A DNA stretch of 61,514 bases, the filler included, from Candidatus Woesearchaeota archaeon (GTDB taxonomy: Archaea; Nanobdellota; Nanobdellia; Woesearchaeales; JAFGPW01): NCBI GenBank assembly GCA_016935985.1. It is 4 parts of 4 records of this genome, joined end to end, with 100 filler letters (N's around TTAATTAATTAA, not from the genome) between each part and the next. Parts side by side here need not be neighbours in the genome. Positions count along the whole stretch, not along the records: positions 1 to 17,005 come from JAFGPW010000010.1; 3 more parts are not named here. The stretch is one strand, 5' to 3'. A program made the position numbers. This document shows, piece after piece, positions 3,001 through 15,000 of the stretch. Numbering within the stretch: position 1 is the first letter of the stretch; the number at the start of each line of letters is the position of its first letter.

Positions 3001-6000
3001 GAGGCGGGCCAATGGGATATCAACGCGACCGTCGCCGACCTCTCAGGCCTCTCCGCCACGAATGACACCGAGTCCTTCACCTACAACACGCTCCAGGCGG
3101 TCCAGTTCAGCGAGACGGCCCTCACTTTCGATAGCGTCAACATCGGTGAGCAGAACGTCACCGCGCTCCAGAACCCGACCCGGATCAACAACACGGGCAA
3201 CGTCGACATAGGCACTATCAACATAAGCGCCTTCGACCTCGTCGGCTTCACGAACGCGACGTACCGCATCCCTGCCGCCAACTTCAGCGTCAACACCACG
3301 GACGCCTGCGGCGGCACGGTCCTTTCGAACGCGACGAATATCACGATAAGCCAAGCCACCTTGCCCGCAGGCAACAACAGCTACGAGGAGCTCTACTTCT
3401 GCCTGAGAGAGGTGCCGGCAGGCATCATCAGCCAGGACTACAACACGACGTACAGCAAGGCGTGGTGGCTGTTCACCTAAGAAATGATCAGTACGAGATG
3501 GGTTTTATGCCAGGGATGCCAGTAAAATGCCTAACATTTCTAGTGACAATTGTATTGATGCCAGATTTTTTCATAAGAGCCGCGATGAAACAGTCATTAT
3601 CGTCTATCGGCCGCCCCTTACGGTATGTCGATGCCTTGATCCGAGCGGCCTCGAGCGAATACTGGCCAATCGGTGATAGTATTCGGATGCGATCGAGGAA
3701 GGAGATGAATGAATCGAATCTTTTTCCGCTCCTCTTGTCTCCGCTGAGGATGCCATCGGCTGTTTCGAAGATGGAAATGTCTGTGGTGTAGAATTCCATG
3801 TGAGGATTCTGCTGTACAAACTCCTTCGCTCCTTCATCCCCCCGCAAGATATCAACGATGAATGTCGTGTCTAGGCAAACATCTTCCTTATCCGTTCTGA
3901 TCGCCTCCTGCTCTGTTCCCTGCTTTTCTCGAGATGTTTCCTCACGCCCTGTGCGAACTCCTCATCCCACGCCCCCCAAACATCGAGCAGGGATGGAGCG
4001 GGTTTTGCGATCCGTCTCACCGTATCCGAGAAGCTCTCATTCGGGAGCTTCGCACGGGAGAGCAACTCATACGCGTCATCCATGATGGTTATTGTTTTCG
4101 TAGCCATGTGTATGTGTACACATACACTGATATATATATCTTGCGTAACAACGTGTCCAATGCACGAGAAACACTCAAGAGCGAGCGAGAAATCGAATGA
4201 ATGTGAGCAGCCGCGGCTGCCTGAGGACGAGCCGCGGCAGGAGCGAGAGCAGCCGGTCCCGGTCGACGGAGGCGAGCGCCGCGCGCGCCCGGGGGTGCGC
4301 GCATGCCCGCACCAGCTTGTCCCAGTCAGCCGGCTTGAACCGGTCCATCGCGGTGCGGAGCCTCGCGTGCAGCCACAGCTCGCGGTTGAGCCGGGACATC
4401 CGGGCCCTGAGGTCGGTCGGCCGGTTCAGCCGCTTGTAGGCGAGGTGCGAAGCGAGCGCGTCAGCCGCGGCGAAGGCAGGAACGATCCCCCCACCGGTGG
4501 TGGCCTTGACCTGGCCCGCCGCGTCCCCGAGCAGGAAGACCTCCATGCCGTGCAGGTCGGCGGCTATCCTCCGTCCCGGCGCGTGCCGCGGCACGATCCC
4601 CGGCTGGTTCTCCACGAACGAGCCTTCCATGTCGCCGACGATGTCTGAGGCGAACTGCCAGAATATCTGGTGGACGTTCCGCGTCTCCCGGGGCACGAGG
4701 AGCCCGACGCGCGCCATGTGCCGGGACTCGGGCACCACCCAGGCGAACGAGCCCACGAAGGGATAGAACCGTACGGCATTGTCGTTATGCAGCCGGAACC
4801 GCGCCTGCGCGCCGATCCAGAAATCAGCCGTCTCACCGAGTCCCGACGCCTTCGCGACCGTGGACCCCGGCCCGTCGGCGCCCACCAGGAACCGCGGCCG
4901 TGACACGCGTACCTGCCTTCCCATGTTCCTGAAATCGAGCGAGTGTTCGCCATAGCCCTCGAAGCGGTGGTCGCGGTAGACGTCGCAGCCGGCGTCCTCT
5001 GCCTTGCGGACGAGCCACCGGTCGAAGAGCTCCCGGTCGACCACCACATCCGGTTCCTTGAACCGCACCGGCACGTGCTCGCCGGACGGGGCGTAGATGC
5101 GCGCCTCGGAGACCGTGTTCAGCACGAACGGCAGGCCGTCGTCCTTCGGGATGTGCCTCCAGAGCGAGGGGGTCAGGATGCCGGTGCACGCGACCGGCCT
5201 CCCTATCTCGCCGTGCTCCTCATACAGCTCCACCTCGAAGCCCCGCTCCGCCATCTTCCAGGCGAGATAGCCGCCGGCAGGGCCGGCCCCCACTATCGAT
5301 AGCATGGGCCGGGGAGAAGGAAAAGGGGTATAAAAGGGTTGTCAATGGGTCAGCGCGCAGGCCGGCCGTACGACCGCGCCACGTTCCGGTCCTCCTCGGT
5401 CGAGGAGGCCCCCCAAGTTATCTCCCGCTTGAAGACCTTGTTCCTGATGAGCTTGTCGTACGTCGTCTTCGCGGTCGTCACGACGTTCAGCGGCGTCGCG
5501 ACAAAGAGCGTGCGCGCCATCGACCAGAAGCCCCTGGTGAGCGAGTTGTAAGAGTCCAGGAATCCCTCATAGGCGGTCTGGAGCTTGGTCTGGCGCTGGG
5601 CGCGGCCTGAGGTGTAGAATTTCGTCAGCGCATAGCCGACGCCGAGCAGGGTGAGCGCGACCGATTGGTACCACTGCGGGCTCCCGGTCGGGAACCAGAC
5701 ATCGCCTGAGTTGTCGCCCATGAGCATCCGCCTGTAGATCGTGTCGTAGAGCACCGTGTACGAGAAGAGCGCCGCGGAGACGCCGGCATAGGCATACGCG
5801 ATCGGCGCCTTCTTGTCCCGCCAGCGCATCATCCAGTTCTTCCGCTTGCGGTCGTACCAGCGCCAGAGCCCGCTCTTCTCCCCATAATACGGGTTGTTCT
5901 CGGCATACCTCGCGACATCCTCCTCCGTCACCCTCTCCCAGGTGTCGAAGTTGATGCCGTAGCTCCAGCGGGAGCGCTGCCTGATCGCCTTCCCCACATC

Positions 6001-12000: not shown

Positions 12001-15000
12001 CGAGCGCGTCGGTGATGGTGTTGCCGGTGAAGTATTTCCTGCCGGTGATCCGGGGGTCGTACTCGAGCAGGACCTTGGCGAGCTTCGACGGCGTGAGGAG
12101 CAACGCGCTCCGCTTGTCGATCTGGAACCGTGCCCGCTCCTCGTACATGCGGTCGTCGAAGCTTCGGAGACCGGCCTCGATATGGGCGATCGGGATATGG
12201 GGGAAGAGCGCTTCTGAGGCGAGCGCGCCGGCATACGAGCTGTTGGTGTCGCCGTAGACGACGACCGCATCGGGCTTCGCCTCCGCGAGAGCTGGTGTGA
12301 TGCCCTCGACGAGCTTCCCGATGTCCGAGCTGTGGACGTCGAGGCTGTAATCAGGCTTCCTGACGCCGAGCTCCTCGAAGAAGACGTCGGAGAGCTCAGG
12401 GGAATAATGCTGGTCAGTATAGATGAGGATGTGGGTGAAGGCCGTGTCGAAGAGGGGTATCACCGGCGCCATCTTGATGATCTCAGGCCGTGTCCCGAAG
12501 ATGGTCGCGACTTTCTTCTTCACCGGATAAACCTCCTATATATGATGGGCATCGTTCGTCATCTGGTTGGGGTGAATAAGGGCTTGTTTATAAATGTTCC
12601 CAATTTTAACTATCATTATATAGTTACTTAAAGTTACAACTATTAAATAGTAATATTTATATAGAAACCTCGATTCACCGGCCTCGATCGATGCCACGAT
12701 CACTGGGGGTTCCACGATGCAGGCGAATCAGAATTGGATCATGCTCACCGTTTTCGCGCTCATTTCGAGCGTCATCATCTCGACAGGCGCGTATGCCGAC
12801 ACGTCCAATATCGCGCTCGGCGCAAGCTACACGCTGACGCCGGCGCCTGACACTGCCTACCCGGACTCAGGCGGAGAGCTCACTGACGGGGCTTTCGGCG
12901 ACCCCGCAAACCCGTACGACCCGGCCTGGATGGCATGGGGCTTCTATGAGCCGACGATTATCCTCGACCTCGGCGAATCGCGCACCCTCGCCGGCATCAC
13001 CGTGCACTGCCTCAACGACCCTCTCTGGGGGATCATCCTCCCCAGCATCGTCGTCTCCTACAGCGCCGACGGCGAAACCTACGCCACGATCGGCCCGATG
13101 CAGCAGGCGGCGGGAACGCTCACGCTCCCGACAAGCGCCACCACACGCTACATCCGCTTCGCCGTCGACCGCGACCAGTGGGCCTTCATCGATGAGATCG
13201 AGGTCTTCTCAGAGACCGAGCCTGTGCCGGTCGAGACGATCCCGCTCATGGCGATCGTCCCCGCATCGCAGGATGCAGCCCCGGGCGACACCGTCACCGC
13301 AGGCATCATGCTCGACGACGTTGAGAATCTCTATTCCTTTGAGTTCCAGCTCTCATATGATCCGGCGATACTCATGTTCGGCAGCATGACACCAGGGACG
13401 CTCCTCGGAAGCGACGGCCATCCGATCACCTGCCTGGGGCCCAGCCAGCTTGGCCCCGGCACGGTCATGTACTCGTGCATACGGGAGCTCTTCCCTCCTT
13501 TCTCGGGCGTCAGCGGATCTGGCCTGCTCGCCACCGCCCACTTCACCGCGATCGGCGACGGCACCTCCCCGCTCGCCCTCACCGGAGTCACGCTCGCGAA
13601 CGCGTCGAACATTATGCAGAGCATGGCGCACGGCACCGAGGACGGCGCGGTAACGGTCACGACCCCTCCAGCCCCTGGCCAGCTGACCGAGCGCAGGATT
13701 CTTCTCATCGTCACCGCGACCGACCCTGACAAGGAGGAGTACTCGCGCTTTCTCAACCTCATGGACGGGCTCGGCTACGCCTATGACATTATCGAGGACG
13801 TCGAGATAGCCCAGACCGACCTCCCCTCACACCCACTCGTCATCCTCTACGGCGACAGCTTGGAGTTCCTCGAGATCTCCGCGCAAGCGGAGGACGGCAT
13901 CATCGGAGCGATACAGGCAGGGACGAACGTGCTCTGGATCGGGAACGGCATCACCGGCAGCCAGACGAGCGCCGCGCTCGCCGACGCCTTCGGCATCACC
14001 TACGGCTCCCACGACCCGGCGAGCGTCCTCGGCGCCGATAAGGTCCTCTACCGCGACATAGACGGCAATCTCGATGTCTTCCCGATCTATGACGAATACG
14101 TCATCGCCGTCTGCCCGAAGGCAGGCACGCAGGTGCTCGCCGGCTTCATCGACCAGGATGCAGACCTCATCCTACCGGCGGTGACGCGAAACCAGGAGGA
14201 CGTGGACGCCGGCCAGGCGGTCTACGTCGCGCTTGACGCCTTCTCCTACTGGAAGAGCGAGAACGAGCCCTTCACTTGGGGACGGGCGGAGCTCATCACG
14301 AAGCTCATCTGGCAGCTCCAGGGAAGCGGCATGGCAGGCATCCACCCCTTCCCCGGCGCGTACGACGCGGCATCCATCGTCCGTGTGGAGGATATCAGCC
14401 CGTCAGGCGAGGCCATGGGCCAGACCGATCCCGAATGGGTCGCGCGCTTCCAGCGGATGGTCGACCTGTACGACCAGGCAGGCCAGCCCCTCTCGATCGG
14501 CACGATCCCGGTCTACGAGGACCCGTACAACGAGGAGCACCACCCCTGGGCATCGACGCAGAACAACATCCCGGCGCTCAAGGCGGTGGTCGAGGACGCG
14601 GTGGCTGACGGCGCCTGCCTGATTGTCCACGGCTACGACCACCAGGACGGAACCGGCGAGGACGACGTCAGCGGCGTCGACTGGGAGGTCTGGGACGAGG
14701 ATTCCGACACTTGGATGAGCTATACCGAACAGCTCCAGGTGACGAGCCAGGGAAGGAACGAGATCGCGGCGAACTTCGCCTACGACTCCAAGACCTGGGA
14801 GACCCCCCACTACAAGGGGAACCATGATACGTACGCGGCGGCGGCCGCTGCCGGCTTTTCCTACTTCAGCGAATCCGACACCAAGATCTGGCCGAACCGC
14901 TTCGGCTACCTGAACGTCGCCGACGGCAGCCTCATCAGCATCCCCGAGACGGCTTTCGACTTCCCCGAGTTCGGGACCGTCGAGGAATGGCAGACGTACG

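What a model noticed while it worked through the whole genome (the two positions that open the first line are those of the whole stretch)
5350..12523. Bacterial NfrBA-WecB exopolysaccharide export operon with a TPR plus beta-barrel exporter in an archaeon
wecB, a 1497-aa lipobox-TPR protein ending in a PgaA/NfrA-like barrel with a terminal Phe, and an NfrB-type glycosyltransferase form one operon behind an archaeal TATA promoter. It likely makes a ManNAc-based polymer and exports it through an outer-membrane-type barrel, which implies that the archaeon works across a second membrane, its own or a host's. The diderm-specific Nfr/Pga secretion architecture is not described in archaea.
Evidence so far: g00005: NfrB E 1e-27 Swiss-Prot, NCBIfam NfrB-group E 9e-48 to 8e-35. 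g00006 residues 1255-1497: Atlas PgaA_barrel 0.92 (177 features), NfrA_C 0.91 (186), all ten best family hits in one clan; sequence ends KLTGSFHF. C1 belongs to the bin: 4-mer correlation 0.96, g00008 72% identical to g00817 on C6, archaeal VapB, TTTATAAA promoter; one 12.6-kb contig at even depth 72 spans 4094-16718 in run X1. Box E lies upstream of wecB.
(Added by a program. Inside this text positions count along the whole contig: they may not be those of the stretch shown here. "Call 12" and the like, gene names such as g00115 and contig names such as C1 are that model's own, and its searches are not shown. The text may have been shortened before it was handed on; [...] marks where a part breaks off. 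The agent that wrote the report below was given it as the finding of a first reader that could run no searches.)

Follow-up and report, generated by a model that had tools for sequence, protein, structure and literature searches.

The report
Gram-negative-type polysaccharide exporter in an archaeon
A small-genome archaeon carries an intact three-gene operon for a sugar-polymer synthase, its likely sugar supply and a long protein predicted to end in a bacterial outer-membrane-type pore, so it likely pushes a polymer through a second membrane that it has no known machinery to build, most likely one supplied by a bacterial host.

Summary
Contig C1 of an archaeal genome carries wecB, a 1497-aa TPR protein and an NfrB-like GT2 as one operon. 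Depth, composition, codon use, promoters and flanking genes all fit the bin.

The TPR protein's tail is a predicted 12-stranded transmembrane beta-barrel (pLDDT 83), not the 16-stranded NfrA/PgaA type. It belongs to an unannotated TPR-barrel family found beside NfrB-like synthases in diderm bacteria. The 'lipobox' is internal (Cys213) and off-consensus. Catalytic motifs and the lipid-facing residues are intact, so decay is unlikely. WecB groups with homologues from the archaeon's own order. A divergent DUF2334 deacetylase-like gene may be a fourth part.

No BamA, TamB, Lnt, GGDEF or GGGP synthase was found. Lgt, LspA, M23 and lytic transglycosylases are present. Best reading: an old, domesticated bacterial export module working across a second, probably host-supplied, membrane.

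It is a singleton (1 of 401 genomes of the order), and function is untested. The scan has noted other outer-membrane-type barrels in Woesearchaeota on other DNA, but not this system.

The parts
11456..12523 (-). wecB, non-hydrolysing UDP-GlcNAc 2-epimerase (355 aa); likely supplies UDP-ManNAc
   Evidence: TIGR00236 over cut-off. GGAGG lies upstream of the GTG start. It groups with 19 homologues of the same order, 99 SH-aLRT, quick tree, long branch.
6953..11446 (-). 1497-aa protein: N-terminal domain, internal hydrophobic anchor, TPR rod and C-terminal beta-barrel
   Evidence: GC3 is 0.88-0.93 along its whole length, including codons 1-184.
10808..10894 (-). Internal signal/anchor, residues 185-213: basic stretch, hydrophobic stretch, T-L-G-C (lipobox-like, off consensus)
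   Evidence: It is the strongest hydrophobic segment of the protein and the only one the scan passes.
7661..10051 (-). TPR rod, residues 466-1262, at least 17 repeats
   Evidence: Pfam TPR families. My own scorer finds 17 units, against a shuffled mean of 3.9 and maximum of 8.
6956..7624 (-). Predicted 12-stranded transmembrane beta-barrel, residues 1275-1497, terminal Phe
   Evidence: Profile of 71 bacterial barrels built without the query: E 1.8e-4, best of 7017 ORFs; 23.3 bits against at most 6.8 in shuffles. Model pLDDT 82.6; fold matches; hydrophobic lipid faces.
5350..6951 (-). NfrB-like processive GT2 (532 aa) without MshEN; DxD at 164-167, VED at 272-274, QxxRW at 324-328; weakly hydrophobic membrane helices
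12587..12594 (-). TATA box for the operon (self-complementary TTTATAAA), in a context that recurs on other contigs
12656..12663 (+). TATA box for the divergent gene; the 16-mer around it has 18 near-matches elsewhere in the genome
12717..17005 (+). Divergent secreted multidomain protein, cut at the contig end (F5/8, cohesin, DUF2334 deacetylase-like at about 14376-15080, CARDB); candidate polymer-modifying partner
   Evidence: Pfam. DUF2334-like genes occur in 16 of 160 bacterial NfrB-like loci, and their profile hits this ORF at E 1.2e-11. Membership in the system is inferred.

Best explanation
This is an intact operon in an archaeal genome, likely assembled long ago from a bacterial synthase-plus-exporter pair and a native wecB, that likely makes a ManNAc-containing polymer and is predicted to pass it along a TPR rod and through a 12-stranded barrel set in a second membrane, most likely one supplied by a diderm bacterial host. 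Steps: (1) WecB converts UDP-GlcNAc to UDP-ManNAc (family shown, activity inferred). (2) The GT2 polymerises it at the cell membrane without c-di-GMP control (motifs and the lack of MshEN/GGDEF shown; substrate inferred from NfrB). (3) The large protein is held in the cell membrane at residues 197-213 with the TPR rod outside (inferred from the basic residues before the hydrophobic stretch). (4) The rod, about 13 nm or more (17 repeats at a recalled 0.75 nm each), guides the chain to the barrel (inferred from BcsC/PgaA). (5) The divergent DUF2334 protein may deacetylate the polymer (inferred). (6) With no BamA/TamB, the barrel is inserted by a host's BAM. This fits in native orientation if the archaeon lies in, or is exposed to, the host periplasm (inferred, and the weakest step). 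Within the 0.55, I put about 0.33 on a host or host-derived membrane and about 0.22 on a second membrane of its own.
For: Gene order barrel then GT, as in many of the bacterial loci; 74 of 160 NfrB-like loci hold this barrel family (the profile was built from these loci) and 54 of 160 hold wecB. The barrel is homologous to that family and collinear over all 12 strands. The model has 12 strands and its top matches are outer-membrane barrels. Lipid-facing positions are as hydrophobic as in bacterial members or more so on most strands, and lumen faces are polar. GT motifs are intact; DxD, TED and QxxRW are the signatures named in PMC8669469. Codon use sits at the 37th-75th percentile of the genome. 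Three loci from monoderm lineages (Bacillota L058 and L072, Chloroflexota L076) and one unclassified locus (L025) have the GT and no barrel hit (L058 and L072 are cut by contig ends), as PMC8669469 section 11 reports for Eggerthella. This archaeon instead kept the barrel and lengthened the protein to 1497 aa; family ORFs were at most 813 aa. Signs of a bacterial host: two M23 and two SLT genes over cut-off, Lgt and LspA, and no GGGP synthase found. PMC8204110 and PMC9723730 infer bacterial hosts or prey for some Woesearchaeota from such genes.
Against: It is a singleton: GT in 1 of 401 order and 1 of 401 phylum genomes, barrel in 1 of 401, all from one sample. No Omp85 was found in G000 or in 121 order genomes, and no TamB or Lnt in G000; the genome is 92.5% complete. 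All three proteins sit on long branches (1.7, 2.2, 4.7). The GT's membrane helices are near the bottom 1% for hydrophobicity (1.28 vs median 2.04 of 255), and one near-invariant Glu (258 of 268 rows) is Lys71. The model leans on an alignment of 49 bacterial rows; the sequence alone did not fold (pLDDT 32). Barrel-like Z scores near 11 do not single out a family. A 184-aa domain precedes the signal, so export is not certain. No host and no second membrane are known for this lineage in the papers I searched.
Confidence: 0.55

Rival explanations
1. Single-membrane repurposing: the GT secretes polymer straight across the one cell membrane, as in monoderm bacteria with NfrB-like enzymes. The TPR-barrel protein has become a tether, adhesin or contact pore whose barrel enters a host's membrane from outside, or the archaeon's own membrane unaided.
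For: NfrB-like GTs without the barrel exist in monoderms (PMC8669469 section 11). No insertase was found. The protein gained about 430 unrelated N-terminal residues with no homologue found. Weak matches to small outer-membrane barrels occur sporadically in the order (8 of 201, 1 over cut-off), so barrels may have a general surface role there.
Against: The barrel gene stays coupled to the GT (1 nt gap) in the bacterial order, and the polar lumen is kept. A barrel entering from outside would be inverted. An open 12-strand pore in an energised membrane would be costly (general knowledge).
Confidence: 0.3
2. Decaying relic of a transfer, no longer functional.
For: Long branches, weak membrane helices and one lost conserved Glu in the GT, and no other genome with it.
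Against: 7.2 kb of uninterrupted frames with fully host-like codon use, kept catalytic motifs, clean lipid faces, host-type promoters. Two other GTs share the short first helix and group with it.
Confidence: 0.1
3. C1 is a bacterial contig wrongly binned, or a chimera.
For: C1 is the shortest contig (17 kb) and holds no universal marker that I identified. All read evidence comes from one run that may be the source.
Against: Same depth as C3, composition and codon use of the bin, the bin's BRE/TATA-like motif on both sides of the intergenic region. Flanking genes have paralogues on C2, C3, C4, C6, C7 and C8. WecB groups with homologues of the order, and the downstream reductase has a homologue beside wecB in G084.
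Confidence: 0.04

Closest known systems
E. coli NfrB-NfrA-YbcH with WecB (N4 glycan receptor; PMC8669469, PMC8669472)
   Same: GT2 of the NfrB group with DxD, TED-like and QxxRW motifs; linked wecB; partner with TPRs and a C-terminal barrel.
   Different: No MshEN domain and no GGDEF gene found. No YbcH gene in the operon. The barrel has 12 strands against 16 for NfrA. The partner is 1497 aa with an internal anchor instead of an N-terminal signal peptide. The host is an archaeon with no BamA found.
Unannotated TPR plus 12-strand barrel proteins beside NfrB-like GTs in Pseudomonadota, Ignavibacteriota, Vulcanimicrobiota, Armatimonadota, Elusimicrobiota, Verrucomicrobiota and others
   Same: Homologous barrel, collinear over 12 strands; often the same gene order; wecB and DUF2334 neighbours. 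No Pfam barrel family at cut-off in the 6 members tested or in the query. Distantly related to NfrA_C-type barrels (probability 87%, E 4e-6).
   Different: Only 13-21% identity. The archaeal protein is about twice the longest bacterial ORF and has an extra 430-aa N-terminal part. No donor can be named.
Synthase-dependent exporters BcsC and PgaA, and 12-strand channels COG4313, FapF, KdgM/VhGalP
   Same: TPR rod plus barrel layout (BcsC, PgaA). Fold matches: COG4313 Z 10.9, rmsd 3.9, 195 aligned; VhGalP Z 10.8, rmsd 4.2, 188 aligned; PgaA Z 9.6, rmsd 4.8, 204 aligned.
   Different: Sequence identity is 5-13%, and the top rows are tied within about 1 Z, so this is a shared fold only. Strand numbers of these solved barrels are recalled.
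Double-membraned archaea (Ignicoccus, ARMAN, SM1 euryarchaeon, Methanomassiliicoccus; PMC4243693)
   Same: A precedent that archaea, including small DPANN cells, can have two membranes.
   Different: The passages I read name no beta-barrel protein or synthase-dependent exporter in them, and none belongs to this order.

Membership tests
NfrB (E. coli type) | GT2 domain with DxD, TED and QxxRW | tested here: met
   D164-x-x-D167 as in the family's DAED, VED272-274 (V in 17 of 268 rows), QRSRW324-328
NfrB (E. coli type) | Score over the NCBIfam cut-off of NfrB or the PRK14716 groups | tested here: not met
   120 vs 1170 bits (NF008411); 164 vs 409 bits (NF011305)
NfrB (E. coli type) | C-terminal MshEN c-di-GMP domain | tested here: not met
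   No MshEN hit, and the protein ends after the membrane region; many bacterial homologues lack it too
NfrB (E. coli type) | Makes a ManNAc-containing polymer | not testable with these tools
   Inferred from the adjacent wecB and PMC8669469
NfrA / PgaA exporters | TPR repeats followed by a C-terminal transmembrane barrel ending in an aromatic residue | tested here: met
NfrA / PgaA exporters | 16-stranded barrel (PMC8669472) | tested here: not met
   12 strands in the model
NfrA / PgaA exporters | Pfam NfrA_C or PgaA_barrel match | tested here: not met
   0 families at E<=10; Atlas feature similarity only; family-level link at E 4e-6
NfrA / PgaA exporters | N-terminal cleavable signal peptide | tested here: not met
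   The main hydrophobic segment is at 197-213; an internal start at Met185 cannot be excluded
Unannotated NfrB-partner 12-strand barrel family | Significant match to a profile built without the query, in the right gene context | tested here: met
   E 1.8e-4, best of 7017 ORFs; 23.3 bits vs at most 6.8 in shuffles; directly upstream of the GT
WecB (non-hydrolysing UDP-GlcNAc 2-epimerase) | TIGR00236 over cut-off, NeuC model below | tested here: met
   245 vs 210 bits; NeuC 38 vs 236 bits
Bacterial-type lipoprotein | Lipobox [LVI][ASTVI][GAS]C in an N-terminal signal peptide | tested here: inconclusive
   T-L-G-C at 210-213, off consensus and internal; Lgt and LspA are present in the genome
Diderm envelope | BamA/TamA (Omp85), TamB, Lnt | tested here: not met
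   None found in G000, 92.5% complete; Omp85 in 0 of 121 order genomes
Diderm envelope | Two membranes seen by microscopy | not testable with these tools
   No cell images or culture

The most novel reading that the evidence does not exclude
This archaeon lives in the periplasm of a Gram-negative bacterium, entering with its M23 and lytic transglycosylases and living on host phospholipids (hence Lgt and LspA without ether-lipid synthesis). It has the host's BAM machine insert archaeal-encoded barrels, so it secretes its own polysaccharide through the host's outer membrane. That would explain why outer-membrane-type barrels turn up across Woesearchaeota with no insertase, and would be a cross-domain periplasmic parasite.
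Probability: 0.15. Interest if true: 0.95.

Novelty: new variant of a known kind. Interest (0 to 1): 0.7.

Why it matters
A transmembrane beta-barrel needs a bilayer to sit in and, normally, BamA to put it there. Here the barrel is coupled to a synthase in the cell membrane by a long TPR rod, which fixes a geometry: one membrane at the anchor and another some 13 nm or more away. Lone barrels in these archaea give no such constraint. The system therefore bears directly on two open questions: what envelope Woesearchaeota have, and who their hosts are. It is testable in laboratory E. coli by asking whether BAM accepts the archaeal barrel. The work also exposes an unannotated bacterial family of 12-strand polysaccharide-export barrels. 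My searches listed no paper describing such a system in archaea; the library lacks most subscription journals.

Tried and rejected
Searches that found nothing useful:
- Single-sequence fold of the barrel: pLDDT 32, unusable.
- Single-protein homologue search with the barrel found only itself. The profile search among longer proteins gave three more family members (one named Ignavibacteria) and itself.
- The first profile (37 hand-picked upstream ORFs) gave only E 0.31; significance came with 71 sequences.
- No PDB sequence match for the barrel family or anything meaningful for the DUF2334 domain. Foldseek gave no row at E<=0.001, though nearly all listed rows are membrane barrels.
- Residues 1-430 of the large protein: no usable Atlas hit and no paralogue.
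- Viral contigs gave 7 partial GT loci and nothing close.
- No RNA holder was listed; two RNA runs of the same study carried only short chance pieces.
- Complex prediction of the GT with residues 1-215 of the large protein: no verdict.
- My strand-counting screen for other barrels in the genome did not discriminate.
- The careful trees did not finish; quick trees are cited.

Readings rejected:
- 'NfrA member': strand number and Pfam do not fit.
- 'Whole operon transferred as one unit': WecB groups with order homologues. That sample was the 19 best hits of the order against WecBs near bacterial NfrB-like genes, not all bacteria.
- The geranylgeranyl-reductase gene downstream as part of the operon: it has its own TATA-like element.
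- 'Box E': not identifiable.

No supplementary files were read; those of PMC12462473 and PMC8204110 may list Lgt or barrel families in DPANN.
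Full report
Setting. The window is four contigs joined by Ns; the finding lies on C1 (17,005 nt, window 1-17005) of G000, a 1.40-Mb, 10-contig genome, 92.5% complete and 0.9% contaminated. It is archaeal: rpoB_arch passes its cut-off. The name Woesearchaeota comes from earlier scan notes. It fits the small genomes and the 135 or more families of the order, but I did not test it directly.

The operon. wecB (12523-11456), the 1497-aa protein (11446-6953) and the GT (6951-5350) follow each other with gaps of 9 and 1 nt. 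A TATA box lies at 12587-12594 and another, for the divergent gene, at 12656; both contexts recur on other contigs.

It belongs to the archaeon. The operon's 4-mer correlation is 0.965 against a median of 0.969 for 188 windows of the other contigs. Codon use is at the 37th, 75th and 53rd percentile for wecB, the large gene and the GT. One unitig without differences spans 4094-16718 at depth 71.9, and two unitigs of C3 have 72.1 and 67; this run may be the source, so it is not independent. Flanking proteins have paralogues on six other contigs. Host-like codons and long branches point to an old acquisition.

The synthase. The GT matches the NfrB group below cut-off and has no close relative: 36% identity by BLASTP for the best hit, and E 3e-38 at best among 1.84 billion representatives. 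Against 268 aligned rows it keeps the DxD-type, ED and QxxRW motifs; one near-invariant Glu is Lys71. It has no MshEN domain, and no GGDEF gene was found. Its membrane helices are unusually weak (1.28 against a median of 2.04 in 255 proteins). Two proteins of unknown origin, P0154 and P0156, share the short first helix and group with it (FastTree 0.978; SH-aLRT 96, quick tree). Long-branch attraction is possible, but P0154 also shares a short motif with it. The GT was found in 1 of 401 order genomes and 1 of 401 phylum genomes, G000 included (the samples overlap).

The barrel. I fetched 160 loci around NfrB-like genes. Many have, directly upstream, a TPR protein with a beta-rich tail that Pfam does not name. 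A profile of 71 such tails, built without the query, ranks the archaeal protein first among 7017 ORFs of G000 (E 1.8e-4, residues 1392-1478). It scores 23.3 bits against at most 6.8 among the 392 of 500 shuffles that were scored, and 6.5 among 387 of 500 shuffles that keep alternate positions. For the fold I used 49 of the 71, leaving out members with long insertions, fragments and near-duplicates. The model has pLDDT 82.6, pTM 0.76 and 12 strands over residues 1275-1496. It leans on the bacterial rows, since the sequence alone did not fold. What does not depend on the fold prediction is the residue pattern: on the face that is hydrophobic in the family, the query is almost all Leu, Ala, Val, Ile, Tyr and Phe, and the other face is polar. 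The best structural matches are outer-membrane barrels, tied at Z 10-11, with PgaA at 9.6. NfrA has 16 strands (PMC8669472, passages), so this is a relative and not a member; the family links to NfrA_C-type barrels at E 4e-6. It was found in 1 of 401 order genomes.

The rest of the large protein. Residues 1-184 are coding-like (GC3 0.91) and have no homologue found. A basic stretch and a hydrophobic segment end in T-L-G-C213, off the lipobox consensus quoted in PMC12462473. It is either a plain membrane anchor with the rest outside, or a lipoprotein signal if Met185 is used. At least 17 TPRs follow. Bacterial family ORFs were at most 813 aa.

WecB and a possible fourth part. WecB is 30-46% identical to homologues in 37 other genomes of 201 searched in the order. 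It groups with the 19 best of them, apart from 45 WecBs found near bacterial NfrB-like genes (biased sample, long branch). The operon is therefore probably a mosaic. The divergent gene carries DUF2334 with the Asp and His motifs expected of a metal-dependent deacetylase (sequence; motif knowledge recalled). Such genes occur in 16 of 160 bacterial loci, 13 of them with the barrel. Against this, DUF2334 is in 25 of 101 order genomes, so it may be native.

Which membrane? G000 shows no Omp85 (0 of 121 order genomes), TamB, Lnt, OMP_b-brl or GGGP synthase. It has Lgt (93 of 101 order genomes), LspA, two M23 peptidases and two lytic transglycosylases over cut-off. PMC8204110 and PMC9723730 (passages) read such genes as signs of bacterial hosts or prey. 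Loci from monoderm bacteria keep the GT without the barrel (two are cut by contig ends; PMC8669469 section 11 reports the same), whereas this archaeon kept the barrel intact and coupled. Weak matches to small outer-membrane barrels occur in 8 of 201 order genomes, 1 over cut-off. Several end in barrel-like C-termini, one lies in a single-contig genome, and some may be contaminants. This agrees in part with earlier scan notes. An organism that seems unable to make its own lipids or insert barrels more likely uses a host's outer membrane than builds one. Double membranes are, however, reported for some small archaea (PMC4243693, passages), so an own or host-derived second membrane stays open.

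Verdict. The feature is real, archaeal and apparently maintained. It works like the Nfr/Pga/Bcs synthase-dependent systems but fails membership of NfrB and NfrA proper. Shown: genes, context, homology, motifs, presence or non-detection of helper genes. Predicted: the barrel fold. Inferred: product, topology, export and the membrane used. It is a single-genome case.

Papers seen. PMC8669469: passages and section 11. PMC8669472, PMC12462473, PMC6349945, PMC4243693, PMC8204110, PMC12352652 and PMC9723730: passages. 10.64898/2026.05.13.725050: term search only, with no hit for outer membrane, lipoprotein, Lgt, exopolysaccharide or porin. All others: listings only. No supplements were read.

Noticed in passing
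G000:C2:10702-11397 (L170) and G000:C4:30282-30686 (L198): Bacterial-type Lgt and LspA over their Pfam cut-offs. Lgt is in 93 of 101 genomes of the order, although the abstract of PMC12462473 says no archaeal Lgt homologues have been identified; a search for the enzyme name with Woesearchaeota found 0 papers.
   Followed up: partly
L002-L162, for example L042:8626-9825 and L005:8451-9806: An unannotated bacterial family of TPR plus 12-strand barrel proteins beside NfrB-like synthases across many diderm phyla, often with wecB, BcsB-like and DUF2334 genes; no Pfam barrel model covers it.
   Followed up: yes
P0154, P0156: Two NfrB-like proteins of unknown origin that share the short first helix and weak membrane helices and group with the archaeal enzyme; possibly from other DPANN archaea.
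   Followed up: partly
window 100-4123: This stretch (LamG surface protein and vapBC) has depth 105 in run X1 against 72 for the operon and C3, suggesting a second copy or a related strain that branches off at about 4100.
   Followed up: no
G000:C7:77862-79448 (L200): An M23 peptidase with an N-terminal extension of about 45 aa before a twin-arginine-like signal; like the TPR protein, its signal is internal.
   Followed up: no
G000:C5:193323-194584 (L199, L217): M23 and lytic transglycosylase domains lie within 1.3 kb on the same strand, possibly in one long protein or operon aimed at peptidoglycan.
   Followed up: no
L201-L208: Weak OMP_b-brl matches in 8 of 201 order genomes; L201, L204 and L208 end in barrel-type C-termini, and L202 lies in a single-contig genome.
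   Followed up: partly
L176 (G084:C1:739190-743176): In a complete relative, the homologue of the geranylgeranyl reductase at window 4175-5305 lies directly next to wecB, hinting that these two were native neighbours before the module arrived.
   Followed up: partly
G000:C5:150534-176960: An ORF of 8808 aa; another of 3958 aa lies at C6:22080-33956.
   Followed up: no
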